DNA from: an uncultured virus (IMG/VR IMGVR_UViG_3300038489_000010) | Taxonomy: Duplodnaviria > Heunggongvirae > Uroviricota > Caudoviricetes | Virus record (IMG/VR): IMGVR_UViG_3300038489_000010 | Reading direction: 5' to 3' (one strand) | Length of the DNA stretch: 64,000 bases | Shown here: positions 837 to 61,307 of the stretch, piece after piece | Position numbering within the stretch: position 1 is the first letter of the stretch | How the letters are laid out: every line of letters begins with the position of its first letter | Translations under genes and position numbers: made by a program | The notes under the pieces: model-generated | What the model saw: the letters and a program-made list of their open reading frames with translations, nothing else | Database searches by the model: none | What the model was told of the DNA's origin: nothing

Positions 837-837
837 T

Positions 838-34329: not shown

Positions 34330-34360
34330 CTCTTATACTCGAAGGTTAACGATTTGGTTA

Positions 34361-36268
34361 TCAAAAGAGTTCTAATTGTCTACATACTAAATTTTCTATT
34401 ATTTTTCTCGCTTGACTAGAATAGTAGCGATAGTTAATCTTTCTGCTTTCAATTGGTTCTTTGTCGAATTTATTCAAGATTTTAACGCCTGTTGTTGCCA
34501 ACAGATTAGAAACTTGTCCAGTTTCTTTGTTTTTCTTGTAAAGGTATCGACCACCTTCTGATGCGTAATATCGATTCATTCGCACTACAGGTTCATCACC
34601 ATATAATACTTTGAATTTTCTATCAACGCGTTGTGTCATTAAAAAATCTCTAATATCTCTATCAGATTTAATAAACTCAGACACGTCTTGTTTTGTTAAA
34701 AAGTAGTTTATCACAGCTTTCGGAATGACCAATGGCGCAAGACCCTTTCCGAGTTTTGCTTCTGTGATAAACATACCTTTCTTTTCTATCAGTTTTGGAT
34801 CCTTGGATTGAGAATATCCTTCTTTGACACCGAAATAGTCATTGACAGCGTACTGATAAAACGCTTCATAGTTATCAGTTTCGAAACCTAGTTTTGTAAG
34901 CTGCTCGACTTCATGAATAGCTTCCTGAATTCTACTCTCGTCGACTCTCTTTGCAACATACATAACGCCATCTGTATTGACTTGTACAATCCTACAATTC
35001 AATGCGAGTAATCGATCCACGAGCATTAGAAGTACTAATTGCCCATTTATACGTATCTTAAAGACCGTAAACGGATCGTACATCCAACTAGCTTCTTGCT
35101 GCATTTTCCCTGTTACAGAGTTTAACACAAGTTTTAGAGCTGTAGACTTGGTTTTTGCTCCACTATGTTTGGCCTCTATGCGCTCATAATAAACATGAGT
35201 GTAGATGGTCCAAAATTCTTTACCTAACTGGCGAGGTACCCATCCATATTGTACTATGAATGAGGGATACATTGACGTAACATCAGCGTGACCAATGTAT
35301 TCATCTTCCTTAGGAACGAAGATTTCTGGGGTATTAATAGAATGAATTCCACCAACACCAACAGAATAGCGTGTTTTCGAGATATAAAAACGCTTCTCGT
35401 ACGCTTTTTGACCTTTTGGAATAAGCTCTTTTTTCGTTGGGACCACCTGTTGTCTCATCTCTTCCAAAACGTCTTGTAATATCGGATTTTTATATTTTAT
35501 GAACGGAAGAATTACATCTTTCAATTGAACGTAATCCATTGGAGAACGTAGCGTTTTGACATATTGCTTATCCAATCCTGTTTTCTTGCAGTATTGATCA
35601 AGCAACATCTCTTCTCCGAACTTCACACTATCCATTGATAGCGCATTAATTCCGTATTCGTTTTCCATGAATAATCGTACATCAATCTCTCCTTTATCTT
35701 TTAATCGATAGAGAAGTTCTTCTGTACTATTAACATCATTCATGTTATATTCTATCATATGATCAATTTCTGAATCAGGTATCGGTGAATCAAAATCACC
35801 GTCATACTCTTGAACATTAGGATAAAACATTGTTATCTGCATTTCCTTTAAGCCTACTCTAAGCTTACTTGAAAACATCATTCTCAACAAGTCCATAGAC
35901 TCAAAGTAATTCAGATATTGATAATGTATGAATCTATCTTTGTCTTCTTTTGTTTTAGCTGATACTATAATATCAGACATGTGTTTAACAGAACTGCATA
36001 TAGCATTATAAGGGCTTGTAGCGAAAACTCTATAATATTCTATAAGATAGTTCATTATTAAATCATCATATCCTTTATTATTATAACCACAAAATAGCTT
36101 TTTGCCACTATCTATAAAAAGATTAAACAATTGATCATATTGGTTCTTACGACTCGAAATCTCAAATGTTTTTATCTCTTTAGTTTCAGTGTTTTTACAA
36201 GTACAACTAAAACAATTAGGAAAACTTTCTATATCATAGATCCATACGGTTTTGTTGTGAATTAACAT
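34361..36268 (-). CDS. Family B DNA polymerase
   Basis: Exo YDIES and GYNNKGYD; Pol ADVTSMYPS, KLVLNSVTGK and NTDG. Confidence 0.92.
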   Translation of the reverse strand: MLIHNKTVWIYDIESFPNCFSCTCKNTETKEIKTFEISSRKNQYDQLFNLFIDSGKKLFCGYNNKGYDDLIMNYLIEYYRVFATSPYNAICSSVKHMSDIIVSAKTKEDKDRFIHYQYLNYFESMDLLRMMFSSKLRVGLKEMQITMFYPNVQEYDGDFDSPIPDSEIDHMIEYNMNDVNSTEELLYRLKDKGEIDVRLFMENEYGINALSMDSVKFGEEMLLDQYCKKTGLDKQYVKTLRSPMDYVQLKDVILPFIKYKNPILQDVLEEMRQQVVPTKKELIPKGQKAYEKRFYISKTRYSVGVGGIHSINTPEIFVPKEDEYIGHADVTSMYPSFIVQYGWVPRQLGKEFWTIYTHVYYERIEAKHSGAKTKSTALKLVLNSVTGKMQQEASWMYDPFTVFKIRINGQLVLLMLVDRLLALNCRIVQVNTDGVMYVAKRVDESRIQEAIHEVEQLTKLGFETDNYEAFYQYAVNDYFGVKEGYSQSKDPKLIEKKGMFITEAKLGKGLAPLVIPKAVINYFLTKQDVSEFIKSDRDIRDFLMTQRVDRKFKVLYGDEPVVRMNRYYASEGGRYLYKKNKETGQVSNLLATTGVKILNKFDKEPIESRKINYRYYSSQARKIIENLVCRQLELF

Positions 36269-36295
36269 GGTTCTATGACTCTTTGGTTAAATTCG

Positions 36296-36433
36296 TGGAA
36301 GATAGGGGAGTCGAACCCCTGGTCTGCGAACATCTATTATAGTTTAGGCTGTCTACTCTTATTCGACATTTTATGTCCTGCACGCCATGCTATAAAATCG
36401 TGTCGCATGTAGCTACCGTTGCTCCATTCTTCC
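36296..36433 (-). ncRNA. tRNA-like RNA with a ~75-nt insert replacing the anticodon loop
   Basis: GGAAGA/TCTTCC acceptor, D arm AGC-AACGGTA-GCT, TGCGA/TCGCA stem enclosing the insert, T arm AGGGG-TTCGACT-CCCCT. Confidence 0.65.
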
Positions 36434-36570
36434 AAATCCCGTTTACTCAGTGAAACGGGTAAAGTCTCCAGCTTACGATCTGGTGCATCGATTTGTTTCG
36501 ATCCGTGTACTGCAGTAGTCATCTAACAGGGATCATGCCTTTACGTTCTACGCGTCCGTAGCAATTATCT

Positions 36571-37764
36571 TTATGCAGCAGAACTATATGTTTGTGTCAT
36601 ATTAAGAACTGTTCCTCCTCCCAATGTAAGTTGAAGGCAGTTTTTGTGACTTGGTAGAAGTACTCTACCTATAGTCTTTTCTGCATTCTGAATATAGCCA
36701 TTAGACATATTTGGATGATGCTCATAATAAGCATCAAATATATCATAGGCTTTCTTCAGTATAGGGTTCATCTCGTTACCATAATAATCGTCATTAATAT
36801 GGTCAGCAAGATGTGTATAGTCTCGGACATGTCCGATAACTCGTTCCTCCAACTTGTTATCTCCGGTTTCAAACCGTCCTATAACAGGAAGGTTAGTCTT
36901 GTCATACTTCGCACGTATTTTGTTACGTATGAACTCACGAGCATTATGCTCACGAGTATTCCACTCAGTATCCATTAACTTAGGGAATAAGTCTTGCTTC
37001 TTCTGAGCGTCTGTAGGTTTAGGATGTTTCCTTACCCACTTTTCCATTTTATGATTCTCTAGTCGAATCATATACTGTTCAGCATCCATATGATTGACAT
37101 GCTGTATCTTAAGAGCGATTTGTCCCTGCTCACTTGGTATACGATACTTCTTCTTAGACAGAAGAACTACCCAAGTTCCAAATCCGCGTATAGCATTAAA
37201 CTCTCCGCTTTTTTCTAACTCTGGTAATCTTGGATCCGATTCCCACGATAGTATTTTTTCGTGATCGTATACTTTACCTTTTGTAAGCAATTTTGGCTGA
37301 GTGTTACGCGGATTGTCTATCCACTTTGGCTTTTTTGCAGACTTATAAGACTTAAGCCATTTTTCGTACCCCATTATTTCAGGAACGCCAATTCTTGCTC
37401 TTATAAGGACTTCTTTGATACAATCAAGGTTTCTGTTGCGGCTCTTGAATGGAAGCTCGAATGGTACCATATAGTCTAAAGCGTTTCCGCGATAATGAAA
37501 CTTGTCTATACCTTTAGGTCGTGTATAGAACATGCTTTCTACGCTACGATAAGGTAGTAGCCTAACGAACGTTTTACCTCGTTCAGTTGCTAAAAAGTTC
37601 AATAACTTCGCCTTAAACTTATCGGCCTGAATGTTGCGATTGCAAGCATACTGATACATTTTGTCTTTAGCTACCTGCTCTTTATGAGTAAGTTTAGCCA
37701 TGCCAAAAACCTTGTTAATACCATTCTTAATCTTTATATCGATGTTTGTTATATTCTTTTTCAT
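36571..37764 (-). CDS. Hypothetical protein (ends SSAA)
   Basis: 397-aa ORF. Confidence 0.8.
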   Translation of the reverse strand: MKKNITNIDIKIKNGINKVFGMAKLTHKEQVAKDKMYQYACNRNIQADKFKAKLLNFLATERGKTFVRLLPYRSVESMFYTRPKGIDKFHYRGNALDYMVPFELPFKSRNRNLDCIKEVLIRARIGVPEIMGYEKWLKSYKSAKKPKWIDNPRNTQPKLLTKGKVYDHEKILSWESDPRLPELEKSGEFNAIRGFGTWVVLLSKKKYRIPSEQGQIALKIQHVNHMDAEQYMIRLENHKMEKWVRKHPKPTDAQKKQDLFPKLMDTEWNTREHNAREFIRNKIRAKYDKTNLPVIGRFETGDNKLEERVIGHVRDYTHLADHINDDYYGNEMNPILKKAYDIFDAYYEHHPNMSNGYIQNAEKTIGRVLLPSHKNCLQLTLGGGTVLNMTQTYSSAA

Positions 37765-37944
37765 TTTGATAATGAATTATAGGGTTATACATTAGTTTTA
37801 AGGCCATTTTCAGGCCGTTCACGGCATTTTCTTCTGGGTTGTGGTAGATTAATCCAGAAACAAATTTAAAGCCGTTAGAAGTGAGCTTTCTCAGCATCGA
37901 TCTGAGTCCCCTAAGGGTAGCCCTAGCGCTAAGCTCTACTGCAT

Positions 37945-38493
37945 TTATGCAGCCAGAATATCGTTAATACTGTCATCAGTAATCTCGATCTCTGTTGTAT
38001 TGTTATAATTCTCAATCTTTGTAAGAAGAGTATTAACGTCTGTTGTAAGATGATTAATCATTGTTGTAAGCTTCTCATATGAGAAAACCTCATCAAATCC
38101 AAGACGCTTCTTGCCCTTCTGAGCCTTAATCTGCGGCTTCAAAGCCTTCTCTCGAAGCTCATTGAGCTTTGTAATCTGCTCACGTGTCTCCTGAAGGCGG
38201 AAAATCGTGTAATAATGACTCTTCTTAAACTCCTCGGTATTGAAAGTCAAAATACCGTTATTAATATTATTGAGGATACCCTTAACGATAATTCGCTTCT
38301 CAATATTCTGAAGAATCTGATTGTGAATAGTTGCTAGATTGTGTAATCGGCAGGTCTTAACTGCACTCTTACGAAGCGTATTCTCTGACTTCATAATAGA
38401 CCATTTACGCTTCAGCTCGTTATCAAGTTTCTTACGAGCATTAATAATATTATTTGCGTTCAACTTCTTTGATTTTGTATTCATATTGTACAT
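37945..38493 (-). CDS. Hypothetical protein (ends DILAA)
   Basis: 182-aa ORF. Confidence 0.8.
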   Translation of the reverse strand: MYNMNTKSKKLNANNIINARKKLDNELKRKWSIMKSENTLRKSAVKTCRLHNLATIHNQILQNIEKRIIVKGILNNINNGILTFNTEEFKKSHYYTIFRLQETREQITKLNELREKALKPQIKAQKGKKRLGFDEVFSYEKLTTMINHLTTDVNTLLTKIENYNNTTEIEITDDSINDILAA

Positions 38494-38544
38494 TTTGATT
38501 TAGGTGAAACATAAAGAAATCGAACTTGAGAATAAACTACCTAG

Positions 38545-38641
38545 TGGTAGGGGAGGGAGTCAAACCCTCCTCGTACGATCAGTCAAAACAGAAATGTTCC
38601 CTAATTTGTTAAACATCTGTTAGTACGCTCAACGTCCTACC
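38545..38641 (-). ncRNA. D-armless tRNA-like RNA with a long hairpin in place of the anticodon loop
   Basis: GGTAGG/CCTACC acceptor, CGTAC/GTACG stem, T arm GAGGG-TTTGACT-CCCTC. Confidence 0.55.
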
Positions 38642-38978
38642 GTATTATACAAGATCCATCCCAGCAGATGACAGAGCATCTTGCTGGGTAGATAACAAAG
38701 TATCTTAACGGATCTGTATATGTTGTATTTAAGGAATGTTCTTGCTTATTTGAAGTCAGTAATACTTATACTTAAAACGATTTTGTTAATGAATGACATA
38801 GCATCACAAAAACCTACATTACATAGAATGTAGAATATCTATATGTTCTTACCTTGTTCGTGTAACCAAGTACACTTTTGATATTTATACTCTCGTCTTT
38901 AATCAATCTTTTATGTGTATGCTGTACAAAGACATAGCTTCATATAGCTAAGAATTCAAAGAATCCTGTTAGCACAGA

Positions 38979-39530
38979 TTAATCGCGAACAATTGTATAA
39001 CTATCGGGTTTCAGGTTTATTTTGAGCAAAATTCGCCCAAGAGAATCACGAACGGGGATTCCTGCACCCCCTTCGAATTTAAAGTCTATTTGCTTCTGAG
39101 AAGACATTGGAGTGCCTTTAGAAGCCATAGGAGAGGTCTTTAATGCGAATCGAAGAGTATCGAATAGACGATCAACTACCACATTGATGTCTTTAGTTGC
39201 TATTAGAGAAACCAAGATTTCCTGGCTAAGTCCATTAACAACAATCTTCTTTACGTCTTTTGCTTCTGCTCCAGCCATTTGAGCTATTGCAGCGAACACT
39301 CGCATTACAAATGATTCAAATGAGATTTCTTTGTCCAGTCGGAACAAAGTATTAATCCATTTGTAGGATGTTTCACCGAGATAGATGTTTCCGTCATCCT
39401 GGATCTCTGTGCACTTATAGGTTTTACCCTTCTGTACGTCCGCGTAAACAGACTCAGAAATCTGAGGTGTTAACAACATCTCGCGGATATGGAGCTTACT
39501 ATTCGGCGTTAAAGAGCCGAGCTTGCTCAT
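38979..39530 (-). CDS. Hypothetical protein
   Basis: 183-aa ORF. Confidence 0.75.
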   Translation of the reverse strand: MSKLGSLTPNSKLHIREMLLTPQISESVYADVQKGKTYKCTEIQDDGNIYLGETSYKWINTLFRLDKEISFESFVMRVFAAIAQMAGAEAKDVKKIVVNGLSQEILVSLIATKDINVVVDRLFDTLRFALKTSPMASKGTPMSSQKQIDFKFEGGAGIPVRDSLGRILLKINLKPDSYTIVRD

Positions 39531-39532
39531 AA

Positions 39533-40150
39533 TTAAGCCTCCGTCTCAATGTGGCCAGCTACGATAACAGTGTCACTTGCTGGATCCTTAGCCATTTCAT
39601 CCTTGTACTGGCGAGCGCGATCGTTATTATTATTGATCGTCTGAATGAGATTGTTCTTCTCATTCTTCAGCTTCTCTACAAGTGCATCGATACGGGCGAT
39701 CTCGTCTCGATTGAACTGATTAGCGAGGTTAACGATGTCATCAGGATCCTTGAAGATGAGGTTCTTGTTGTCCGGAGATGCGATAGCCTTAGCTATATTC
39801 TCTTCGGTTGACTTCAAGAATACATCACCATTGCTGCTGAGAGCCTCAAGAGTGATGCGAGCCTCGTTATTAGCGCCCTTATTAAGTATGACAACATTAT
39901 TACCAATAGCGTCGCGTACGAACTCTACGCTAAAAATGTCGTTCGGAGTTACCTTAACTCGTGCGATTGGACGAGTTATGTACAACTCCTTGTCACCATC
40001 CTGGTGAATCTTCAAACACTTCTGGACATCGTCAGGATTTCCAGCAAACTTGTTAATACGATAAAACTGGCCGCCAAGACTGCTGCCTGTGCGACGAAGT
40101 GGATTACGATTAGCCTTAAGAGCGGCTGAATCAAACTTAATTTCTTTCAT
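39533..40150 (-). CDS. Hypothetical protein with C-terminal coiled coil
   Basis: 205-aa ORF. Confidence 0.8.
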   Translation of the reverse strand: MKEIKFDSAALKANRNPLRRTGSSLGGQFYRINKFAGNPDDVQKCLKIHQDGDKELYITRPIARVKVTPNDIFSVEFVRDAIGNNVVILNKGANNEARITLEALSSNGDVFLKSTEENIAKAIASPDNKNLIFKDPDDIVNLANQFNRDEIARIDALVEKLKNEKNNLIQTINNNNDRARQYKDEMAKDPASDTVIVAGHIETEA

Positions 40151-40199
40151 AAGATTATCCTTCTTGATTTCGTCAGTGATTGACCAACGATAATCTATT

Positions 40200-42400
40200 A
40201 ATACTATGTACTTTCTATAATGGCATATGTACGTTCTCCAATAAAAATAAAAGTTTTTGTTTGTTTCGAGTGCCTAACTATATCAATTGGCGATGAATCC
40301 AACGCCACGCTTTAATTAACTATACAACAGGCTAAAATTATATTCCTTTATATGAAGCTCAGTTTAGCACATGGGAATCCAACGGTAGGATTAGCTATGC
40401 CCTTAATTTGTATAGCAGTGGACTTACACAAAGCTATGAAATAGAAGATATGCGAATCAACGCAAATGTTAGGTAACTCACGAAGGTACTTACTGATTCA
40501 GGATTCCGAAGTATACTCCGTTTATTACTGTATTTATGATTTTACTACCTTACTGTATCTTTGTAACTGATGTTCATAGGATTTCTCCGTTGGCAAGATT
40601 TTACTCAGATACAATATACCAACAAAAATAAGATTGTGAAAGATGATTTTCTGTGTTTTCTTCCACTGTCGCTGTTGAATATAAGACCTAAAACAGCTGA
40701 AAGGTCGATAGTTTCCTTCGCCCGCTATGCAGTACTGGTACGACATCATACTACATCATTACTCGCATCAGATGTAATTAAATCTTTACAGACTTAACCG
40801 TTTATCATCGTTCTAGCTACTATGCTCTATTTCAGGATAGAGTACGTGAGGATCGCGTTTCTTTATCGGACACCCTATGCGGATCTACGGCTCATATTCT
40901 GTCTACAGGAATGAACATTTCCCACTTTTCTTTATAGTGATCATTTACAACGCTGGAATTTAACCAAGTCTATAGTTACTTGTCACCCACATTATCTTGC
41001 TTTTCACACATTCCGAGACAGGGAATAGTGAACGTAGGATTCAATACCTACACCTGCATACGATTACCACTGCGTCTAATGGCTACGATAATGCTGCCCA
41101 TCATAACATTTCTTTACTTTTGCTCTATATGTCTTTATACCATCTAAGATTGCGTTCTTAGATTTCTATAAATCATATTCTGCTTTACGTTTGTTCCACT
41201 CGCAACTTTCCGGGAGAGATCAGGTCAGTGTCTACTTTACAACAGTAGCTTGTACCATTCCGACAGCTTCATATATACAACATACAATTCGTCGGCATCT
41301 AACTTCGCATCCGGAGGACATGCAATTTTTGTTAAACAATGTTAATAATTCTCTAATGTTCTATGAATTTTTACTCGTTCGATATAGATATGCTAAAGCA
41401 CAATTAATGTATCATTCAATCTATGACCGTGGTCCTCTACGCCGCTGTATTACTCCTTGCACAGGATTCATAGATGTATAGTGTTTACAAGACTGCACCA
41501 TACTAATCTCTACTTGATTATTTTATTCACTTCGAACTACTACGTGGAGGTCTGCGCAGCTGGGTTGCTGTGTTCGAATCAACGTAATATTGACAATTTG
41601 TTTTGGAGGTTGTCCTACTCCTGTGGTTGACTGTCAAGTTGTCACCTTAAGGGCTTTCGCCGTCGCAGAATTTCAACTTGCTAAAGGTTTAGTTCTGTGC
41701 TACCATCAGACTTATGTACGCGGTCTCGTGGCGCGTGGGACTTATACTTCCCTACATCTTGCATCGATGTCTGTATCATTCAACTTTTATATACCGCATG
41801 AACGATCAAGGCCTGGCGGTCTGCTTCAACCCCAAGGGTAACCTCATCCCTGGATCCCATTCAACTGAGAATGACTGAATCGAACAGTCAGGATTCCATA
41901 TAAGGTCGCTTCCTAATGGTTACGCACGTGAGTATTTCCTCACGGTCTTTGCATATTTTCACCCCTCAATGCAGGCTTTGGAAACCTGTGACACTAGGCT
42001 AAGCTAACAATAAATACATATATGTAAGCTGGATCATACATATATTTTCAACTCGTGTAACGTTAGTGTATATAGATGTATTAGTCTATATACTTATCGA
42101 TACGGTTCGTTTTGCTCTTCTTGAGACTTACGCGTCTTCTCTGTAATCGTCGCCAGACGGTTCTCAGTCATACAGAATAGGGTTGAATACAACGCTCTCC
42201 CTACTTACAACAAGTTTTTCACGCTTATTGCATTTCGCTTTATCTTTTGCAAGCTCTAATTTTCAAGCTGTTCATCCTTTGGGGACTAGCATATTTTCAA
42301 GCCAAGTAAAATTTGGTTGTTACTTTACCACAGATTATCCTCTGATGTTGAGTAGTGCCACGGCTAATGAGACCGTATGTTTTTACTCTAAGACTTCGTG
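40200..42400. ncRNA. Long non-coding, hairpin-rich region (candidate large ncRNA or ncRNA cluster)
   Basis: No credible ORF over ~2.2 kb; looks less AT-rich than the late genes; many hairpins; recurrent GGATTC/GAATCC. Confidence 0.5.
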
Positions 42401-42408
42401 ATCGACGC

Positions 42409-42933
42409 TCAATCACGAACGAAGTGTCTAAGGTTTTTAGGCGTACTAAGACAAGTTGCTGAGTGAACTTGCCAATTAGCTGTATCGTTAAGGATACTGT
42501 CAAGGGTGACCTTCTTACCATCCCTAGGAATTGCTACATATACACAAGACTTAGTACGTGTCTTTGTCTTATATATTACCCGTACAGGATGCTTCTTTGA
42601 AGCGTTCCTAACCTTCGGGGTTTGTTGGTTAATTACTTGTTTCTTAACACTGCTACTATCAACATAAATAGTATCACGTACAGTTGTTGTAGAAACGTTA
42701 CTATTTTGTACTGGCTGTCCCATATACTGTAGGACAGGGAGTTTGTTCACAGGTTCTGCTGCTACCTGTTGGGTAGGCAAAACGTCTGGAAAACTACTCT
42801 TCATTCCCATTATTCCTGCAAAGAGGAATAGAGAACAACAGAATAATTTGAAGAATGTTTTCATAACTTTGATAGTTTTATTCGGGCCAGAAGAACCTGT
42901 CTGTTTTACGAATAATACGCGTGAAAAAGCCAT
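42409..42933 (-). CDS. Hypothetical membrane/secreted protein (likely start MKTFF)
   Basis: Hydrophobic N-terminal segment. Confidence 0.65.
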   Translation of the reverse strand: MAFSRVLFVKQTGSSGPNKTIKVMKTFFKLFCCSLFLFAGIMGMKSSFPDVLPTQQVAAEPVNKLPVLQYMGQPVQNSNVSTTTVRDTIYVDSSSVKKQVINQQTPKVRNASKKHPVRVIYKTKTRTKSCVYVAIPRDGKKVTLDSILNDTANWQVHSATCLSTPKNLRHFVRD

Positions 42934-42966
42934 GAACTTTTTGGAATACGGTACTAATGGCCCTTA

Positions 42967-44394
42967 TTATTTTTTTGGGCTATCCTCCTTCTTCTCTTCA
43001 GGCTTCTTTTCCTCTGCGCTGTCATCAACCTCTATAAGGTCGGTCAGGTTGCCAACATTATAGTTACCAAGTGGCACGGTTGGATCACGGAACAGATTAG
43101 CGATGATACCTGCGCGCTGCTGTACATTCTCGTCAATGTTAGTGTACTTCTTTCCATTGCCGCGATCAGTTTCAGGATAATAAGCGCGACGAATGTTAGT
43201 ATAAGCACGACGAGCTGATGCAGACACAGTCTTGTCATCACTCTTGCGATTCGTTAACAGATTATCAGCAAAGTCTGCTGTTGGCTCTGTTAGGAGCGTA
43301 CGATAATTCTCAAGATCGGCAATCTCTTGTGTCTTTTGAACAATCGCATCCTTGTTGGCCTTCTTGTCTTTGTTGAGAGCTGCAAGAGACTTGTTCTTTG
43401 TTGCAATCTCTTTATCAATCTTCCAGTTGATAAGAGCGCGGCAAATGCCAGCTACTTCCTCTTCTGTCATAGTAGAATCACCTATTGTAGGACTCTTAGA
43501 GTTTAGATACAGAGATGAGAACGGAAGGATTACACTGCCGCTCTTCTTAAGCTCTTCAAAGAGATGGTTTCCATAACCACCAACAATGAACGGACAATCA
43601 AGGATAAGATCCTCAATTTCCTTAATAAGCTTATCGAACGGCATGTTCTTATACGCTTCTGCCTTTACCTTATCGTCTTTGTTCTGAATCTGACGAACAG
43701 AGCGATAGAAGTTCAGAGTCTTCTTGAAGTCCTTAGAGAAGGTGTTAGCGGCGAGCATATGCTGAAGGGATTCCTTTAGCTGGTCATCGTTCTCGATCTT
43801 TGTAGGATCGGTTATAACCTTCTTGTTACGAGCTTCCACAGTCTTCTTGACTGCTTCCTTAGCTTCCTTGGACGCCTTTACGTCTTCAGAATGAACAACT
43901 ACATTGCCATCCTTGTCTGCTGGTAACTCAAGAACTTTACCACTCATAGTGAAGCCAAGCTCTTTAAAAGCATCGGCCATATCGCCAAGAACTGCTTTCT
44001 TAACAGTAAGAGCAAATGGAGTCTTACTATACTGCATCTCAATAGCCATCTCTGCGGTGGCTGAGATCATAGTTACGCGGTCCATCTTTTCGATGACTTC
44101 GTCGCTAATTCCCATCTTTCTTGCTGCAGATCCATTGTCGACATGGTAATAGTCGAACAACATCTTAGTGACGTCTGCTCGACGATTAGGGTCCATGCCT
44201 CCATACTCTGCTTGAAGGATGTTCTTAGCTACTTCCTGCTCTGAAGGTACAGCGGTTGTTGCTGGAACCTTTGACTCAGGCTTTTTCTGCTCCTCTTTCT
44301 TAGGAGTTGGCTTTTTCTCTGCCGGCTTCTCTACAGCGGGTGCAGCTGGTACTGGTTTCTGTGCTGCCTTCGCAGCATTCTTTTTCTTAGACAT
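42967..44394 (-). CDS. Hypothetical protein with low-complexity termini
   Basis: 475-aa ORF. Confidence 0.85.
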   Translation of the reverse strand: MSKKKNAAKAAQKPVPAAPAVEKPAEKKPTPKKEEQKKPESKVPATTAVPSEQEVAKNILQAEYGGMDPNRRADVTKMLFDYYHVDNGSAARKMGISDEVIEKMDRVTMISATAEMAIEMQYSKTPFALTVKKAVLGDMADAFKELGFTMSGKVLELPADKDGNVVVHSEDVKASKEAKEAVKKTVEARNKKVITDPTKIENDDQLKESLQHMLAANTFSKDFKKTLNFYRSVRQIQNKDDKVKAEAYKNMPFDKLIKEIEDLILDCPFIVGGYGNHLFEELKKSGSVILPFSSLYLNSKSPTIGDSTMTEEEVAGICRALINWKIDKEIATKNKSLAALNKDKKANKDAIVQKTQEIADLENYRTLLTEPTADFADNLLTNRKSDDKTVSASARRAYTNIRRAYYPETDRGNGKKYTNIDENVQQRAGIIANLFRDPTVPLGNYNVGNLTDLIEVDDSAEEKKPEEKKEDSPKK

Positions 44395-44465
44395 TTTGAT
44401 AATGTTTTAAATTAAACAATGTTAACTAATAATGGAACTGAACATGATTGTCATAACTTATGCCG

Positions 44466-44867
44466 TCATGAAGTATCATATGTTCCCATTGCTACCCAAG
44501 GTTGTCCTCGTATTCCCCCAGGTCCACTTGCAGCAACGAGGTTGTCACAAGACATGTTGTTGTCACGAACAGTATCCCGACTCACCTGAGCTGCTATAAA
44601 AGTAGCTGTAGGTGCATTCAACGCGTTCAGTTCAGTCATTTCTGACATGAAAGGAATTGTTGCTGGTACACCTGTCTCAGGTGTAAGGACTGTTACAACA
44701 TTAGTCTTCTCCTCGTCAGAAGTTGTACACTTCTGTACGATTGCTGCGCCAATTGCTCCAATACCGAAAGCAATAAGAAGCTGCCAAAACAACGTAATGC
44801 TCCGGTTTGCGCGACCCAATACAAATGCAGTAAGGGTTGCAATTAAACAATAAGCGAATAGACTCAT
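44466..44867 (-). CDS. Hypothetical membrane protein (possible anti-sigma)
   Basis: Two N-terminal hydrophobic segments; 4-nt overlap with the sigma gene. Confidence 0.7.
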   Translation of the reverse strand: MSLFAYCLIATLTAFVLGRANRSITLFWQLLIAFGIGAIGAAIVQKCTTSDEEKTNVVTVLTPETGVPATIPFMSEMTELNALNAPTATFIAAQVSRDTVRDNNMSCDNLVAASGPGGIRGQPWVAMGTYDTS

Positions 44868-45421
44868 TTTTTAAATTGTTGTTTTAATTTGTTACGTGTC
44901 CTAAATAGGACTGATTTTACAGTTCCTACTGGAACATGCAATATTTCACTAATTTGAACTACCGTTAAATTATTTACATAGAAGAGTTCATTAATCTTCC
45001 TTTTCTGTTCAGGTAACTTCTTAATCTCACTCATAATCTTTTCATAAGTCATATGATTGATCAGGTCATTTTCGTTATTTCCAGATTCTTCGTGAATATT
45101 AAGATGTGAATCTTGATCTTCTAAGGTTAATTTATGAAGTGCTCTAGAACGTAGATAATCTATTGCGGTTCTATTAGTGATGATTCTCAGCCATCCGCCA
45201 AAAGACGAATAATCTGTGAATGTCGAGAGTTTGTCATAAGCTTTTAAAAATACTATATTAGCAATATCTTTAGATTCGTCATCATCATGAATATAACTAA
45301 ATAATATCTTTTCAACAAATGTTTTGTACTTATTGAATAGCTTATTAAAAGCAGACATATCGCCTGCTTGGGCCTTTTTGATAATGCCTATCTCCTCTTG
45401 GGTAATTTTAGGTATTTTCAT
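44864..45421 (-). CDS. ECF-type RNA polymerase sigma factor
   Basis: GDMSAFNKLF, DIANIVFLKAY, FGGWLRIITNRTAIDYLR (region 2); ISEILHVPVGTVKSVLFR (region 4). Confidence 0.92.
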   Translation of the reverse strand: MKIPKITQEEIGIIKKAQAGDMSAFNKLFNKYKTFVEKILFSYIHDDDESKDIANIVFLKAYDKLSTFTDYSSFGGWLRIITNRTAIDYLRSRALHKLTLEDQDSHLNIHEESGNNENDLINHMTYEKIMSEIKKLPEQKRKINELFYVNNLTVVQISEILHVPVGTVKSVLFRTRNKLKQQFKK

Positions 45422-45508
45422 ATCAAAACATAATTAAATAACCGCCTCTGTCTGAGTACGGGAATTTTGTAATCGGAGAGGTCTTAATAAAGCCTCCTCC
45501 TCTCCGAC

Positions 45509-45880
45509 TTAGAATGGTAGTGTTTCCATAATAATGTTGTCAAGTTCTTTGTGAATGTTGCGTGTCATATTATCGTGCATTATTAACTTTACGTTATTAG
45601 GCAGATCAAGTTTATTTAACATCCCTGTTGCTATACGCAATAGAACGTTATAAGTTTTACTTGATTCATACTCATGTCGTCCTAATTTAAGAACAATTTT
45701 GAGATTAACCCAATGTACGAACTTACGAACGTCTTTTGACATACATCTGAGTTCTACTCCAAAAACAGATGTATCGTCGAGCATAAATTGATCTTGCGAA
45801 TAAACACGTAAAAGCCAATTATACTGCTCGGCGATAGACATCCCTTCGGCATACTGTAGCAATGGACTATGTATTAGCAT
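45509..45880 (-). CDS. Hypothetical protein
   Basis: ORF 45509..45949; likely start MLIHSPLL at 45880. Confidence 0.6.
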   Translation of the reverse strand: MLIHSPLLQYAEGMSIAEQYNWLLRVYSQDQFMLDDTSVFGVELRCMSKDVRKFVHWVNLKIVLKLGRHEYESSKTYNVLLRIATGMLNKLDLPNNVKLIMHDNMTRNIHKELDNIIMETLPF

Positions 45881-46322
45881 ATTTGTCAAAATCATTAACA
45901 ACGTCAATAATAGTATCCATCGATACTTTAAACTCTTGTACCATAGCACGTAAAACTTTTGTTACTGGTATACCTTGCTGACACAAGTAAAAATACTTGT
46001 TTCTAATATCAGATTCTTGGTCTGGTGCCAGTTCAAGCTTTCCCGTAGAATGGTACTCGTTTTTTGAAAACACAGAATAGTCGATGAAATCCATAGACGT
46101 GAATTTCCACATTTCTGGAAATATCTCGATATTATCAAGAACTTCCTTAGATGCTTTTTCTAACTTTCGAGTCTTTAAGAAAAGACCTAAGTTAAATCCA
46201 CTATCTAACTTCAACGTAGGAAACAGCCCTTTTATCGTTATGATAAATAGGTCGTTATCCCTCTGCACAAAATACATTCCTGCACTTTGCGGAAACAGAT
46301 GATTAGTAACTGGTTGTTTCAT
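45867..46322 (-). CDS. Hypothetical protein (TAG stop)
   Basis: 151-aa ORF. Confidence 0.7.
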   Translation of the reverse strand: MKQPVTNHLFPQSAGMYFVQRDNDLFIITIKGLFPTLKLDSGFNLGLFLKTRKLEKASKEVLDNIEIFPEMWKFTSMDFIDYSVFSKNEYHSTGKLELAPDQESDIRNKYFYLCQQGIPVTKVLRAMVQEFKVSMDTIIDVVNDFDKYANT

Positions 46323-46851
46323 GTAAATATTTTATTATGAATTTAATAGTTCCATCATCTAATTTATACAGTTTTTTAAACTCAGCCTGTACCTGAGCAT
46401 CAGTGTAATGGTCAATCCTTTTGAGATTTTTCCATGAGTTCGTAACATATGGTAGATATATTTTAAACCATTTAATCCAACCATTAGCTAACTTGAATCG
46501 ATTATAAGTCTCGTAATCGTTGTTTCTTAAATATGTCCAGTCGATTGTGTCTTCAAAATTAAAGAACCGCAGTTCGTTAGGCACAGATTGAATTTGTTTT
46601 CGGGTTATCTGTTTACCATGCCTCCATGCCCATAGTTGAATCTCATCAAACGAAACTGCGGCCTTTAATCCTAAGACTTGTTTAACTGCTAAACTTCTGT
46701 ATTCAACAGGTTTGCAGACAACATATCGTCTATAGACATAATCAATATAACGATCTTTACACTTACATCTTTTCAAAGCTAAGTTCATATATGGTTGCAT
46801 ACGGTCTCTTAACATACCTTTAAAACCAGAATATTTACTATACTTATACAT
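46303..46851 (-). CDS. Hypothetical protein
   Basis: 182-aa ORF. Confidence 0.7.
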   Translation of the reverse strand: MYKYSKYSGFKGMLRDRMQPYMNLALKRCKCKDRYIDYVYRRYVVCKPVEYRSLAVKQVLGLKAAVSFDEIQLWAWRHGKQITRKQIQSVPNELRFFNFEDTIDWTYLRNNDYETYNRFKLANGWIKWFKIYLPYVTNSWKNLKRIDHYTDAQVQAEFKKLYKLDDGTIKFIIKYLHETTSY

Positions 46852-46869
46852 ACTTTGAAAGTTTTGTTG

Positions 46870-46941
46870 TAGTCGATAGCGGAATCGAACCGCTCTTTAG
46901 AGAATGAAAATCTCTTGTCCTAACCGATAGACGAATCGACC
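46870..46941 (-). tRNA. tRNA-Glu(UUC)
   Basis: Canonical cloverleaf GGTCGAT..AGAGA-TTTTCAT-TCTCT..TTCGATT..ATCGACT-A. Confidence 0.92.
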
Positions 46942-46945
46942 ATAG

Positions 46946-47013
46946 TAGAGAGTGCAGGAGTCGAACCTGCTACGAAGATTTCTCAACGATGAATCCGCGT
47001 TCTTATACTCTCA
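46946..47013 (-). ncRNA. D-armless tRNA-like element
   Basis: GAGAGT/ACTCTC acceptor and GCAGG-TTCGACT-CCTGC T arm; no D stem; irregular anticodon arm. Confidence 0.55.
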
Positions 47014-47019
47014 ACCAGC

Positions 47020-47154
47020 ACTTTGGTAGCTTACACCTGAACTTCACTTACGCTACGTGAGTGTAGTCCACGATATTATTAGTATCGCCGTTTAATTTAT
47101 GTTAAAGCGTTGTGTGTATTTATATCCTTCAATGGTCAAAACCGGTAATCGCCC
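47020..47154 (-). ncRNA. ssrA: Permuted (two-piece) tmRNA, coding piece; tag GDTNNIVDYTHVA* at 47048-47089
   Basis: 5' GGGCGATTACCGGTTTTGAC; resume context TTAAAC-GGC; tag start resembles Bacteroidota G(E/D)xN tags; 3' end approximate. Confidence 0.85.
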
Positions 47155-47295
47155 ATATTAAAAAGAGCAGCTACTTTCACAAGCAACTACTCTAAAACTC
47201 AATAGGTCAGTTTTCGTGAACAAACTATTGATAAAATTGATTATAAACAAAATAATAATCTAATTAAAACTATAAACTACAATACCATTAGCTAG

Positions 47296-47347
47296 TGGAC
47301 GATATGGGAGTCGAACCCATGTCCCACTGAATTATTTCATACGCGCT
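47296..47347 (-). ncRNA. ssrA: Permuted (two-piece) tmRNA, acceptor piece
   Basis: TTCAGTG-GGAC-ATGGG-TTCGACT-CCCAT-ATCGTCC-A; pairs with GGGCGAT giving G3.U70, and with CATTGAA (P2); 5' end approximate. Confidence 0.85.
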
Positions 47348-47829
47348 AAAACTCGTGAGTATTTCCACAGGCCACGTGGAAACATTCGATTTAAGACCAT
47401 TTTCTTGCTTTCTAAGACACTTTCTCGTCTCTTGTGGGTAGCTAATCCACTTAAGATTTAAAAGCGCTTAGAAAACAATTCTATGATTACTTAAATTTAG
47501 ATTGATTAGAGGCTTCAACACTGGCTCAAGGCTCTCGTTTAAGTATAATCTCGTTTTTTGATAAGTTGTCGGATATATTTTTTCCCGCTCTGGGAACATA
47601 TTTCACCGGCTTATAGCTCTTAACAACTAATTGGCTTTGAAACGAACGGATATTAGAACCCTCCGTACGGGTTTTTACTACCACTCACTGCCTCAAGGGT
47701 CTTGGAGTCCTGTTAATTCAGGATTTATTCGATCAGCCAAGCTTTGCCACCCTATAGGTACCTGGTACCGTGATCTACTTAATTCGCTATACTGCTTCTA
47801 GAGTCTGATAGCTAGGTAATTAGTTCGCA

Positions 47830-52493: not shown

Positions 52494-52650
52494 AAATGTA
52501 AATCACGTCAGAATTGCAATGTTAGAATTTGTTCATATTATTACTTTTTCCAAAATAAAGCTCGCTTGCAAATTATCCTGGTACGTTTTATACAGCTATT
52601 CTCACGAACCACTGTATAGTTGGCTTATTGAAAGTGATTTGCTTAATTTG

Positions 52651-52721
52651 TTGTCTCATAAGGATTCGAACCTTAACTGACAGAACCAAAAACTGTAGTG
52701 CTACCATTACACCATAAGACA
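52651..52721 (-). tRNA. tRNA-Gln(UUG)
   Basis: TGTCTTA-TGGTGTAATGGTAGCAC..TTTTGGT..TTCGAAT..TGAGACA-A cloverleaf. Confidence 0.92.
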
Positions 52722-59634: not shown

Positions 59635-60629
59635 TAAAGTAGTTCGATGATAAATAGAATGAATAATATGACAAATAAAATATATGAATGTTCAGATGAA
59701 CAATTTGAACAGTTAATTAAAGGTTCGACAAATATATCTGAAGTTTTATTCAAACTAGGATATTCGGTAAAAGGAAATTCTTGGGGTTTTTCACAAGTCA
59801 GAAGACGAATGGACGACCTTGGATTAACAATGAAAGATTTTAAAGGCAAGTCTGCAATATCTGAAGGAAATAATATAAAAAAAGTTACTGCAGAAGATTT
59901 ATTTAAACAAAACTGCAAACATACTAGAAACGTGTTGCGTAGATTTATAATAAATCACCATTTATTGCCATATAAATGCGCAATATGCGGATGCTCTGAG
60001 TGGAATGGAAAAACTCTAAGCCTAGAGTTGGATCATATAAATGGAATAAATAACGACAATCGTCTTGAAAATCTTAGATTTCTTTGTCCTAATTGTCATA
60101 GCCAGACAACAACATATGGTAGTAGAAATCAGCAGCTTAACGAATCGAAATATGAAATATCAGAAGATTTAAGAAAACTGGTTGAATCTACATATGAGAA
60201 AGAAAAAAGCGTTAAACGAACATCAGCTATACTTGGTATACGAAGATGTGTTGTGACGAAAATAGTTAACGAGTCTGGACAAAAACATTCTAATCGGCGA
60301 TATGTTATACGATACAATACTGATGGTACTGAAGCAGAAAGATATGGATGTTTAGCTGATGCTGCAAGGTGGCTTATAAATAATAATCTTGTCAAAACAT
60401 CTAAAATAGAAACTGCTAAAAGAACAATTAGATATAATGTAAATCGTAATAACACCTTTGCTGGGTTCAAATGGACTATATTGGATGGTTCTGGGATAAT
60501 AAATAATCCAGAATTAGAATCTTCTCTAATTGACTCGGAAAACAATGTTGACGAGGCGCAAGCGAAAGCAGCGTGACAGACTAAACGAGAAGACCGGTCT
60601 TAGGACTGGATGCAATAGTCGATCAAATG
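59635..60629 (+). mobile_element. Group I intron (995 nt) inside the suppressor tRNA anticodon
   Basis: Follows U and ends in G; P7 GACUA/UAGUC, P3 UUCUC/GAGAA, P8 CCGGUC/GACUGG. Confidence 0.88.
59647..60576 (+). CDS. Intron-encoded HNH homing endonuclease with NUMOD1-like C-terminal domain
   Basis: CAICG..LELDHINGINNDNRLENLRFLCPNCH; VIRYNTDG..YGCLADAARWL; no TAG. Confidence 0.92.
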   Translation: MINRMNNMTNKIYECSDEQFEQLIKGSTNISEVLFKLGYSVKGNSWGFSQVRRRMDDLGLTMKDFKGKSAISEGNNIKKVTAEDLFKQNCKHTRNVLRRFIINHHLLPYKCAICGCSEWNGKTLSLELDHINGINNDNRLENLRFLCPNCHSQTTTYGSRNQQLNESKYEISEDLRKLVESTYEKEKSVKRTSAILGIRRCVVTKIVNESGQKHSNRRYVIRYNTDGTEAERYGCLADAARWLINNNLVKTSKIETAKRTIRYNVNRNNTFAGFKWTILDGSGIINNPELESSLIDSENNVDEAQAKAA

Positions 60630-61228: not shown

Positions 61229-61250
61229 TGCATGACTTAGGTTCATGTTT

Positions 61251-61280: not shown

Positions 61281-61307
61281 CTATTTATACTAATTAAAAT
61301 AATAAAT

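What the first reader, a model, noticed from the sequence alone, without database searches (positions are those of the whole stretch)
47020..47347. Circularly permuted two-piece tmRNA in a crAss-like phage, with an altered tag
Seen on the - strand: the tmRNA 3' module (P2 strand TTCAGTG, T arm, ATCGTCC-A) is encoded upstream of the 5' module (GGGCGATTACCGGTTTTGAC-CATTGAA), with a ~140-nt spacer between them. The two modules form a full 7-bp acceptor stem with the G3.U70 Ala determinant. A resume context precedes the tag GDTNNIVDYTHVA*. Known: two-piece tmRNAs occur in alphaproteobacteria and some cyanobacteria and betaproteobacteria, and Bacteroidota tags typically end in LAA. I do not know of one in Crassvirales. 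Inference: the phage may redirect ribosome rescue, for example at stalled UAG codons, using a tag ending HVA that has a different degradation fate.
Basis: partly seen in the sequence, partly recalled or inferred. Interest (0 to 1): 0.9.

Follow-up and report, generated by a model that had tools for sequence, protein, structure and literature searches.

The report
Two-piece tmRNA gene, crAss-like phage
This cattle-gut crAss-like phage carries a real, back-to-front (two-piece) gene for tmRNA, the RNA that frees stalled ribosomes; sister phages already have it labelled in public records, so it is a sound find rather than a new one, though its build and role are unstudied.

Summary
ARAGORN calls a permuted tmRNA at 46957..47385 (-) with tag GDTNNIVDYTHVA*. 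Rfam's tmRNA_permuted model matches 47048..47354 at 35.6 bits, below its cut-off of 47.

Comparison with relatives settles it. With the partner strand chosen blind to pairing, 13 of 14 distinct acceptor stems pair 7/7. G1-C72, G2-C71 and G3.U70 never change. Swapped partners pair 7/7 in only 8 of 182 cases.

It is not new. RefSeq annotates the homologous tmRNA in cr124_1 and cr7_1. A 2022 supplement lists 13 crAss genomes as 'Permuted'. This scan has noted it 30 times before, in at least 24 genomes.

- Family tags end in VA or AA.
- One tmRNA-bearing relative, cr10_1, does not recode TAG.

- A covarying pseudoknot after the tag.
- A covarying structured domain of about 120 nt just upstream of the acceptor half, so the RNA is probably full-sized.
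- A tRNA-like element that closes the coding piece.
- Relatives with a group I intron or an odd T loop that standard finders miss.

No SmpB was found in 5 related genomes, so the host's must serve.

The parts
47359..47476 (-). Structured domain directly upstream of the acceptor half. Long-range helix A is 47476..47465 with 47419..47408. Hairpin B is 47450..47447 with 47437..47434. Hairpin C is 47387..47377 with 47369..47359. It is probably the 5' part of the acceptor piece, standing where PK3 and PK4 lie in one-piece tmRNA (inferred).
   Evidence: Alignment A1 of 19 relatives. RNAalifold: 27 of 30 predicted pairs have a compensatory change. The count of structure pairs on these 25 pairs: 90.1% of cells paired against 76.2% in shuffles; 22 pairs with changes on both sides; 0 of 500 shuffles reach this; slid controls give 35-49%. 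Coordinates.
47325..47347 (-). Acceptor-piece strands of the extended P2 helix: P2c' AGCG 47347..47344, P2b' GTAT 47342..47339, P2a' TTCAGTG 47331..47325.
   Evidence: P2a: 18 of 37 distinct variants pair 7/7 and 8 pair 6/7 in a fixed register. Beyond P2a, in 15 diverged representatives the own-partner duplex averages -10.93 kcal/mol against -7.39 for permuted partners, with 0 of 10000 permutations as low. The P2b and P2c registers were read by eye.
47296..47324 (-). 3' half of the tRNA-like domain: GGAC, T arm ATGGG-TTCGACT-CCCAT, acceptor 3' strand ATCGTCC, discriminator A. CCA is not encoded.
   Evidence: The T stem covaries: 17 distinct stems, with 2-4 pair types at each position.
47155..47295 (-). 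Intervening sequence of 141 nt, which must be cut out. It holds a terminator-like hairpin (47193..47164, 13 pairs) followed by TTTTT, just 5' of the coding piece.
   Evidence: In relatives the length ranges from 16 to 460 nt. A hairpin just before G1 recurs in relatives (by eye).
47128..47154 (-). 5' half of the tRNA-like domain: acceptor 5' strand GGGCGAT, D-loop analogue TACCGGTTTTGAC, P2a strand CATTGAA.
   Evidence: 13 of 14 distinct acceptor stems pair 7/7 with the partner chosen blind. Positions 4-7 each show 2-4 pair types. G3.U70 is invariant.
47090..47127 (-). Coding-piece strands of P2b (ATAC 47119..47116) and P2c (CGCT 47109..47106), then the A/U-rich resume context ATAAATTAAAC. There is no room for a PK1 pseudoknot.
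   Evidence: (by eye). The MFE cofold of the window's two pieces recovers the acceptor stem, P2a and P2b. For the AGCGC strand it prefers the coding piece's 3' tail. Relatives favour the pre-resume strand (by eye).
47048..47089 (-). Tag reading frame GGC...GCG TAA, giving GDTNNIVDYTHVA*. The added peptide would be Ala plus this tag.
   Evidence: There is peptide-level conservation across 53 distinct tag DNAs. The Thr of DYT uses ACT, ACG, ACA and ACC, and the final Ala uses GCG, GCA, GCC and GCT.
47016..47069 (-). Helix 5 (GGACT 47069..47065 with AGTTC 47043..39, stop codon inside), then an H-type pseudoknot. S1 is GGTG 47037..47034 with TACC 47028..47025. S2 is AGC 47031..47029 with GCT 47019..47017.
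   Evidence: Fold. Pseudoknot: 69 of 137 loci fit the anchors. Of 9 distinct S2 4-mers, 7 pair 4/4 and 2 pair 3/4, the window among the latter. Swapped partners pair 4/4 in 5 of 72 cases.
46946..47012 (-). tRNA-like element (acceptor stem GAGAGT/ACTCTC, T arm GCAGG-TTCGACT-CCTGC, one central arm, no D arm) that abuts the end of the coding piece. It is the likely RNase P signal that makes the coding piece's 3' end (inferred).
   Evidence: Rfam gives only a weak tRNA-Sec match, 17.3 bits. Fold, (z -1.76). An acceptor-plus-T-arm element follows the tag in 116 of 137 loci, 35-102 nt long and with a variable middle. For the window that strict search picked the tRNA-Glu instead. The window's own element pairs 6 of 7 in the acceptor stem.
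46869..46941 (-). tRNA-Glu (UUC), next in the same array.
   Evidence: 55.9 bits.

Best explanation
This is a working, circularly permuted ssrA (tmRNA) gene of a Suoliviridae-type crAss-like phage.

The minus strand encodes, in this order:
- a structured domain and the 3' half of the tRNA-like domain;
- a 141-nt spacer;
- the 5' half of the tRNA-like domain;
- the tag frame, helix 5 and a pseudoknot;
- a tRNA-like element.

Shown here: the two halves pair through a 7-bp acceptor stem with G3.U70 and discriminator A. They also pair through an extended P2 helix, and these pairs covary across the phage family. The tag is conserved as a peptide.

From established knowledge: alanine can only be attached to a free 3' end. 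The transcript must therefore be cut after A47296, so the mature RNA has two pieces held together by base pairing.

Inferred:
- RNase P cuts 5' of G47154 and 5' of the downstream tRNA-like element.
- The 3' trailer is trimmed and the host adds CCA.
- Host AlaRS charges the RNA.
- Host SmpB and EF-Tu deliver it to ribosomes stalled at mRNA ends. None of 5 related phage genomes encodes SmpB.
- Translation resumes at GGC and ends at TAA, adding A-GDTNNIVDYTHVA.

The likely benefit is extra ribosome-rescue capacity during infection. Whether the phage tag marks proteins for degradation is open.
For: - ARAGORN makes a permuted call with this tag.
- RF04321 matches end to end, E 2.4e-5.
- The homologous genes in RefSeq phages are annotated as tmRNA.
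- ARAGORN makes permuted calls in 7 of 8 related phage records.
- RF04321 matches 5 of 5 related genomes, at 70.6 and 49.6 bits in two of them.
- Acceptor stem: 13 of 14 distinct stems pair 7/7 with the partner chosen blind. Swapped partners pair 7/7 in 8 of 182 cases. G1-C72, G2-C71 and G3.U70 are invariant.
- T stem and P2a covary. The extended P2 also covaries, with 0 of 10000 permutations as low.
- Post-tag pseudoknot: 7 of 9 distinct S2 variants are fully paired, against 5 of 72 when swapped.
- The tag is conserved at peptide level with synonymous codon changes.
- The stop is TAA or TGA in all 104 distinct coding pieces.
- SmpB (PF01668) is found in 0 of 5 related genomes, while the control rings in 10 bacteria.
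- Spacers of only 16-21 nt in some relatives leave no room for a second promoter. This argues for one precursor.
Against: - The window's own Rfam score is below the family's cut-off: 35.6 against 47 bits.
- There is no RNA-level proof. The four RNA-library runs laid are contigs. Long contigs run through the spacer, and no ends or joints could be read.
- No PK1 pseudoknot can be placed between P2 and the resume codon.
- A terminator-like hairpin plus T5 sits between the two halves in this window. It could limit read-through into the coding piece.
- Aminoacylation, SmpB binding and tagging are untested.
Confidence: 0.82

Rival explanations
1. The RNA mainly serves the phage's TAG reassignment. 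It would rescue ribosomes that pile up when UAG stops being a stop, or replace a host tmRNA whose own tag frame ends in UAG.
For: - The window recodes TAG in its late genes. One ORF of 5424 aa holds 114 in-frame TAGs.
- 8 of 9 tmRNA-bearing genomes examined recode TAG.
- None of 104 distinct phage tag frames ends in TAG.
- In two Segatella copri MAGs that also hold ~100-kb relatives of the phage, the host tmRNA tag frame ends in TAG. It would run on for 33 codons if TAG were read through.
Against: - cr10_1 has the tmRNA but uses the standard code.
- Only 2 of 30 tmRNAs from that bacterial family end in TAG; 24 end in TAA and 4 in TGA.
- The zero count of TAG rests on related sequences and on a base-poor sample.
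- tmRNA enters ribosomes at mRNA 3' ends, not at in-frame stop codons (established knowledge).
Confidence: 0.15
2. It is chiefly a decoy. Its tRNA-like domain would soak up host SmpB and shut down host trans-translation, as proposed for the TLD-only RNA of mycobacteriophage DS6A. Tagging would be secondary.
For: - The phage relies on host SmpB: 0 of 5 related genomes encode it.
- The DS6A precedent was read in passages of PMC4131195 and PMC11915505.
Against: - The tag frame, resume context, helix 5 and stop codon are all kept.
- The tag is conserved as a peptide through synonymous changes. A pure decoy would not need this.
Confidence: 0.08
3. It is a chance ARAGORN hit or a decaying relic with no function.
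For: - The window's Rfam score is below the cut-off.
- ARAGORN does make spurious permuted calls. One in a bacterial locus (L220) gave tag ATPPPPPSSSAR.
Against: - Compensatory changes occur in every helix tested.
- The gene is conserved across three Suoliviridae subfamilies.
Confidence: 0.02

Closest known systems
tmRNA (SsrA) features annotated in RefSeq crAss-like phages of Suoliviridae (cr124_1 NC_055899, cr7_1 NC_055895). The 13 crAssphage genomes listed as 'Permuted' in Table S1 of Buchholz et al. 2022 (PMC9004378) belong here too.
   Same: - Same gene at the same place. Two hypothetical genes and a sigma-factor gene lie downstream.
- Same permuted order.
- Same tag core, NNIVDYT(H/N)VA.
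   Different: - This copy differs in its acceptor stem (GGGCGAT/ATCGTCC against GGGCGTG/CACGTCC) and its P2 helix.
- Its spacer is 141 nt rather than 70 nt.
- It comes from a cattle-gut phage whose polymerase is only about 50% identical to theirs.
- Those records only label the gene. I found no paper that analyses it.
Two-piece (circularly permuted) tmRNAs of Alphaproteobacteria, a betaproteobacterial lineage and cyanobacteria. Rfam RF04321 merges RF01849-51. Keiler 2000 and Sharkady & Williams 2004 are cited in passages of PMC9004378 and PMC11915505.
   Same: - The gene order is reversed.
- Acceptor stem and P2 form between two RNA pieces.
- One precursor is cut by tRNA-processing enzymes (passage of PMC11915505).
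   Different: - It is carried by a phage of Bacteroidota.
- The tRNA-like domain resembles the one-piece tmRNA of Segatella. A relative's T arm plus acceptor strand differs at 1 of 29 bases (by eye).
- The tag starts G-N/D like host G-E/N tags.
- There is no PK1.
- The break seems to lie after the post-tag pseudoknot.
- A tRNA-like element ends the coding piece.
Two-piece tmRNA of marine phage Melnitz and the pelagimyophages (Buchholz et al. 2022, PMC9004378; abstract and passages read).
   Same: It is a phage-borne permuted ssrA with no phage smpB reported.
   Different: Theirs is of alphaproteobacterial type and sits behind a glutamine riboswitch. Table S1 marks 'none' for a riboswitch in the crAss rows.
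One-piece tmRNA of Bacteroidaceae hosts, with tags GENNYALAA or GETNYALAA.
   Same: - Ala-type acceptor stem with G3.U70.
- The GG.UUUGAC elbow.
- An A/U-rich resume context before GGC.
- No CCA encoded.
   Different: - The host gene is colinear, about 397 nt, with its pseudoknots in one piece.
- The host tag has 9 residues and ends in LAA.
- The phage tag has 13 residues with a DYT core and ends in HVA.

Membership tests
tmRNA (SsrA) | 7-bp acceptor stem with G3.U70 and discriminator A (alanine identity) | tested here: met
   GGGCGAT/ATCGTCC plus A. G3.U70 is invariant in 14 of 14 distinct stems in relatives, and positions 4-7 show compensatory changes. In one search, where no A was required, 42 of 43 distinct rows have the discriminator A. 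The exception was a mis-registered row.
tmRNA (SsrA) | T arm with a T-loop of tRNA type, and the D-loop analogue (GG...UUCGAC-like elbow) | tested here: met
   ATGGG-TTCGACT-CCCAT and TACCGGTTTTGAC. 110 of 137 loci have a canonical T arm. The others have an odd T loop, an insertion in the loop, or are cut short.
tmRNA (SsrA) | P2 helix joining the tRNA-like domain to the rest | tested here: met
   CATTGAA/TTCAGTG. 26 of 37 distinct variants pair at least 6/7 in a fixed register. The extension covaries.
tmRNA (SsrA) | Internal tag reading frame with a resume codon, conserved as a peptide, ending at a stop inside helix 5 | tested here: met
   There are 37 distinct tags with a DYT core, and synonymous codons at conserved residues.
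tmRNA (SsrA) | Pseudoknot PK1 between P2 and the resume codon | tested here: not met
   Only about 16 nt lie between the P2c strand and GGC in the window and in most relatives. No fold or covariation for a PK1 was seen. Reduced tmRNAs without the full set of pseudoknots exist (recalled), so this does not exclude membership.
tmRNA (SsrA) | Pseudoknot(s) after the tag | tested here: met
   An H-type pseudoknot at 47037..47017 with covarying S2, plus three covarying helices upstream of the acceptor half. Whether the latter form pseudoknots is not shown.
tmRNA_permuted (Rfam RF04321) | Score at or above the curated gathering cut-off (47 bits) | tested here: not met
   The window scores 35.6 bits. 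Relatives score 70.6, 49.6, 41.3, 40 and 35.3 bits. The model was built from three bacterial lineages only (passage of PMC11915505).
Two-piece tmRNA | Gene order 3' half, spacer, 5' half | tested here: met
Two-piece tmRNA | Two mature RNA pieces in the cell | not testable with these tools
   Only assembled contigs of RNA libraries were available. They cannot show ends.
tmRNA (SsrA) | Alanylation, SmpB binding, trans-translation | not testable with these tools
   SmpB is not encoded in 5 of 5 related phage genomes, so a host partner is needed.

The most novel reading that the evidence does not exclude
The crAss-like phage tmRNAs may be a separate, Bacteroidota-derived origin of the split gene form with its own architecture.

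The RNA would be full-sized, about 245 nt plus about 140 nt. The break would lie between the post-tag pseudoknot and a structured 5' domain of the acceptor piece. There would be no PK1. The pieces would mature by tRNA-style punctuation, with a tRNA-like minihelix closing the coding piece.

The family also seems to have produced forms outside the classes tabulated in the 2025 tmRNA database paper: permuted genes with a group I intron in the T loop, and genes with a rewired T loop. The phage may keep the RNA because its own tag frame never ends in TAG, so rescue goes on while TAG is being reassigned.
Probability: 0.3. Interest if true: 0.6.

Novelty: new member of a known kind. Interest (0 to 1): 0.38.

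Why it matters
crAss-like phages are among the most abundant viruses of mammalian guts, and trans-translation is a central quality-control pathway of their hosts. A conserved phage tmRNA that must use host SmpB, AlaRS and RNase P is a handle on how these phages manage the host's translation apparatus. That includes the period when many of them reassign TAG.

For RNA biology, the family offers a natural series of permuted, intron-bearing and T-loop-altered tmRNAs. Current finders miss some of these: ARAGORN and Rfam failed on 3 genomes that carry the coding piece. For this window alone the gain is small, because the gene is already labelled in sister genomes.

Tried and rejected
- **RNA evidence.** Four RNA-library runs were laid. 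Only contigs were available. In three of the runs (X16, X17, X20) a long contig covers most or all of the locus, spacer included. No joints or ends were found. This says nothing about processing and may reflect DNA in the libraries.
- **Whole genome of the window.** None is held. SmpB and a suppressor tRNA could therefore not be sought in the rest of this phage.
- **The window's own tRNAs.** The window holds only tRNA-Glu(UUC) and tRNA-Gln(UUG), and no CUA suppressor.
- **Host tmRNA ending in TAG as a general reason for the phage gene.** This holds for 2 Segatella copri MAGs but only 2 of 30 tmRNAs of that family.
- **Downstream tRNA-like element as a suppressor or real tRNA.** Rfam gives only 17.3 bits to tRNA-Sec. 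ARAGORN does not call it. Its middle part varies from nothing to a full tRNA in relatives.
- **Rank test of own against all partners for the extended P2 on 60 near-redundant sequences.** It was weak: the own partner was best in 5 of 60. After thinning to 15 diverged representatives it was clear.
- **MFE cofold of the window's two pieces.** It pairs the coding piece's 3' tail with AGCGC of the acceptor piece. I rejected this as the conserved pairing because the tails of relatives are not complementary there (by eye).
- **Supplement of the 2025 tmRNA database paper.** It had no hit for crAss names or accessions in the one file held. Whether that database contains these genes remains open.
- **PHROGs on the neighbouring genes.** The four nearest downstream genes and the three nearest upstream gave no family. 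The fifth downstream matched a sigma factor.

Full report
**1. Observation**

On the minus strand the quoted elements are all present. ARAGORN reports a permuted tmRNA at 46957..47385 with tag GDTNNIVDYTHVA*. It also finds tRNA-Glu at 46869..46941 and tRNA-Gln at 52650..52721. Rfam at gathering thresholds finds only the two tRNAs. In an E-value search of 1 kb, the tmRNA_permuted family RF04321 aligns end to end to 47048..47354 at 35.6 bits (cut-off 47, E 2.4e-5).

Exact coordinates:
- P2a 3' strand: 47331..47325.
- GGAC: 47324..47321.
- T arm: 47320..47304.
- Acceptor 3' strand: 47303..47297, discriminator A at 47296. ACTA follows, so no CCA is encoded.
- Spacer: 47295..47155 (141 nt).
- Acceptor 5' strand: 47154..47148.
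- D-loop analogue: 47147..47135.
- P2a 5' strand: 47134..47128.
- Tag frame: 47089..47048.

**2. What the window is**

The family A DNA polymerase at 34361..36268 (-) is 64.5% identical to those of cr131_1 and cr130_1. It is 50% identical to those of cr124_1 and cr7_1. All of these are Crassvirales, Suoliviridae.

Under the standard code only 2 ORFs reach 400 aa. With TAG read as sense, a 5424-aa ORF (2863..19137, 114 TAGs) and a 2448-aa ORF (19143..26489, 72 TAGs) open on the plus strand. The minus-strand block that holds the tmRNA reads well under the standard code. Runs that hold near-identical DNA are mostly labelled bovine gut. No whole genome is held for the window.

**3. The gene is already labelled**

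blastn against phage records hit cr124_1 and cr7_1 over the coding piece (77% and 76% identity). There a 357-nt 'transfer-messenger RNA, SsrA' feature is annotated. ARAGORN gives permuted calls with these tags:
- GNVNNIVDYTNVA and DNVNNIVDYTNVA in the two RefSeq phages, and GNDNNIVDYTHVA in Dulem virus 42.
- Four more in cr10_1, cr52_1, cr272_1 and cr131_1, but none in the Bohxovirus record.

RF04321 matches 5 of 5 of those last five genomes: 70.6, 49.6, 41.3, 40 and 35.3 bits.

Table S1 of Buchholz et al. 2022 (PMC9004378; supplement searched) lists 14 crAssphage genomes with tmRNA, 13 'Permuted' and 1 'linear'. Its main text does not discuss them in the passages I read.

Three literature searches found no paper that analyses a crAss-like tmRNA:
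- tmRNA with crAss-like.
- Permuted or two-piece tmRNA with phage.
- tmRNA, ssrA or transfer-messenger RNA with crAssphage, Crassvirales or Suoliviridae.

The hits I opened only mention ARAGORN or Pharokka. This scan has noted the same thing 30 times in at least 24 genomes.

**4. Covariation of the tRNA-like domain**

Three scans of IMG/VR, together with the phage records and the window, gave 137 loci with a 5' module followed by a DYT-type tag. These hold 104 distinct coding pieces, because some contigs were fetched twice. A further 35 or so stretches from the two looser scans are chance matches inside protein genes. I dropped them by eye from the printout.

I defined the T arm upstream without looking at acceptor pairing. 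On that basis 110 of the 137 loci have a canonical T arm, giving 41 distinct tRNA-like-domain variants and 14 distinct acceptor stems.
- 13 stems pair 7/7 and one pairs 6/7.
- Positions 1-3 are always G-C, G-C, G.U.
- Positions 4-7 show 2-4 pair types each.
- Stems swapped between lineages pair 7/7 in 8 of 182 cases.
- T stems (17 distinct) and P2a (37 distinct: 18 at 7/7, 8 at 6/7, 11 shifted by a bulge) also covary.

The 27 loci without a canonical T arm fall into three kinds:
- an odd T loop (GGGGC-TATCGTAT-GCCCC);
- an insertion in the T loop;
- a locus cut short.

**5. The rest of the RNA**

*Extended P2.* By eye, P2b is GTAT/ATAC (GACT/AGTC in one lineage). P2c is AGCG/CGCT in the window, TATCC/GGATA in L040 and L102, TAGCA/TGCTA in L044, and CAGTG/CACT in L001. 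In 15 diverged representatives the duplex beyond P2a averages -10.93 kcal/mol with the own partner. With permuted partners it averages -7.39 (sd 0.71), and 0 of 10000 permutations are as low.

*No PK1.* P2c ends about 16 nt before the resume codon, so no PK1 fits.

*Helix 5.* It encloses the stop codon.

*Post-tag pseudoknot.* S1 is GGTG/TACC. S2 joins the bases 5' of TACC with those after AAAGT. 69 of 137 loci fit the anchors. Of 9 distinct S2 variants, 7 are fully paired. Swapped partners are fully paired in 5 of 72 cases.

*Upstream domain.* Upstream of the acceptor half, 19 relatives align over about 260 nt. They share three helices. 27 of 30 RNAalifold pairs have compensatory changes. For the 25 pairs outside the T arm, 90.1% of cells pair against 76.2% in shuffles. 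22 pairs change on both sides, 0 of 500 shuffles reach this, and slid controls give 35-49%. This domain ends 11 nt before the P2c strand. I therefore infer that it belongs to the acceptor piece and that the RNA is full-sized. Earlier notes of this scan called it half-sized or pseudoknot-free.

**6. Ends and processing**

The 3' end after A47296 must be freed for CCA addition and alanylation, so two pieces follow from the gene order (established knowledge).

Spacers range from 16 to 460 nt. Those of 16-21 nt leave no room for a second promoter. In the window, a 13-pair hairpin plus T5 lies just before G47154. Hairpins at this place recur in relatives (by eye). Their role is unexplained.

Directly after the pseudoknot comes a tRNA-like element at 47012..46946 (fold). 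An acceptor-plus-T-arm element follows the tag in 116 of 137 loci. It is 35-102 nt long, usually starts 26-57 nt after the stop, and has a middle part ranging from none to a full tRNA. I read it as an RNase P signal that sets the coding piece's 3' end. This is inferred.

**7. Tag**

There are 37 distinct tags of 12-15 residues; one 6-residue entry is probably a misplaced start. They have a [V/T/A/I/M/N]DYT core and end in HVA, NVA, CVA, LVA, AVA, IAA, LAA, EAA, VAA and others.

Conserved residues use synonymous codons. Thr uses ACT 35, ACG 8, ACA 7 and ACC 3. The final Ala uses GCG 48, GCA 3, GCC 1 and GCT 1. Stops over 104 distinct coding pieces are TAA 76, TGA 28 and TAG 0.

Host-type tags in the bacterial family of the Segatella copri MAGs are GENNYALAA and close variants. 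Their stops are TAA 24, TGA 4 and TAG 2 of 30. The Bacteroides tag GETNYALAA causes strong loss of a reporter (passage of bioRxiv 10.1101/2025.03.18.644028).

**8. Partners and the TAG question**

SmpB (PF01668) is absent from 5 of 5 related phage genomes, while the control rings in 10 bacteria.

A late protein of the window has homologues with in-frame TAGs in six records:

| Record | In-frame TAGs |
|---|---|
| cr131_1 | 2 |
| cr272_1 | 4 |
| Bohxovirus | 5 |
| cr124_1 | 7 |
| cr7_1 | 7 |
| Dulem virus 42 | 2 |

cr52_1 also needs TAG recoding: ORFs of at least 300 aa sum to 8847 aa under the standard code and 21962 aa with TAG as sense. cr10_1 does not: 19973 against 20718 aa. So the tmRNA is not confined to recoding phages.

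The two S. copri MAGs that contain ~100-kb relatives of the phage have a host tmRNA whose tag frame ends in TAG. It would run 33 codons further if read through. This is suggestive for that host but not general.

**9. Distribution**

Of five Suoliviridae genomes not listed in the 2022 table, none gave a convincing RF04321 match (best 15.7 bits). Yet three of them (cr4_1, cr56_1, cr113_1) carry the coding piece by pattern. cr6_1 and cr1_1 gave nothing by either search. Thus 11 of 13 related records examined carry the gene, and standard finders undercount it.

**10. Verdict**

This is a genuine member of an already-annotated but undescribed phage tmRNA family. Its novelty claim is wrong, and its functional inference is untested and partly contradicted.

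Noticed in passing
window 1..26489 (+) and 61245..64000 (+): The late genes need TAG read as sense. A 5424-aa ORF at 2863..19137 holds 114 TAGs, and a 2448-aa ORF at 19143..26489 holds 72. The minus-strand block at 26.5-57.5 kb has almost none. No CUA suppressor tRNA lies in the window.
   Followed up: partly
L026 187..467 (IMG/VR contig); similar insertions in L033, L069, L132, L154: A permuted tmRNA gene has its T loop split after TTC by a group I intron (RF00028, 87.2 bits, E 1.1e-21). Only 1 of 7 loci tested gave the Rfam hit. The others may be cut short by the locus edge. The 2025 tmRNA database paper tabulates standard, permuted and intron forms, but no form that is both permuted and intron-bearing.
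   Followed up: partly
L046, L049, L051, L054, L074, L104, L107, L108, L114, L115; also cr4_1, cr56_1, cr113_1 (L203-L205): A lineage has a non-canonical T arm (GGGGC-TATCGTAT-GCCCC) but a normal acceptor stem and tag. ARAGORN makes no call there. RF04321 gives at most 15.7 bits on the three RefSeq genomes.
   Followed up: partly
window 46946..47012 (-) and the homologous place in relatives: A tRNA-like element with acceptor stem and T arm but a variable or missing middle lies directly after the coding piece. In L028 it is a bare 35-nt minihelix. In L154 it is a real tRNA-Leu.
   Followed up: partly
window 47164..47193 (-); relatives' spacers: A hairpin lies just 5' of the coding piece, followed in the window by T5. 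In many relatives its loop reads CATGTTGTAAAAC. The hairpin is duplicated in the longer spacers of L014, L022, L030, L031 and L050. Its role is unknown.
   Followed up: no
L211 1501..1897 and L212 (Segatella copri MAGs): The host one-piece tmRNA has tag GENNYALAA ending in TAG. Read-through would add 33 codons. The same MAGs hold ~100-kb contigs carrying the phage-type tmRNA (L207, L209), which gives a weak host hint.
   Followed up: partly
L058 spacer (460 nt); L041 spacer: Some spacers contain an extra tRNA-like stretch or a lone T-arm-like hairpin between the two tmRNA halves.
   Followed up: no
window 59647..60576 (+) and 44864..45421 (-): An HNH endonuclease gene (PHROG 10822, E 3.3e-42) sits among the late genes. 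A sigma-factor-like gene (PHROG 1740, E 1.2e-25) lies about 1.4 kb downstream of the tmRNA array, separated from it by four genes, in a position like that in cr124_1.
   Followed up: no
L220 (bacterial locus): ARAGORN gave a second, spurious permuted tmRNA call (tag ATPPPPPSSSAR) beside the real one. Permuted calls therefore need checking.
   Followed up: no
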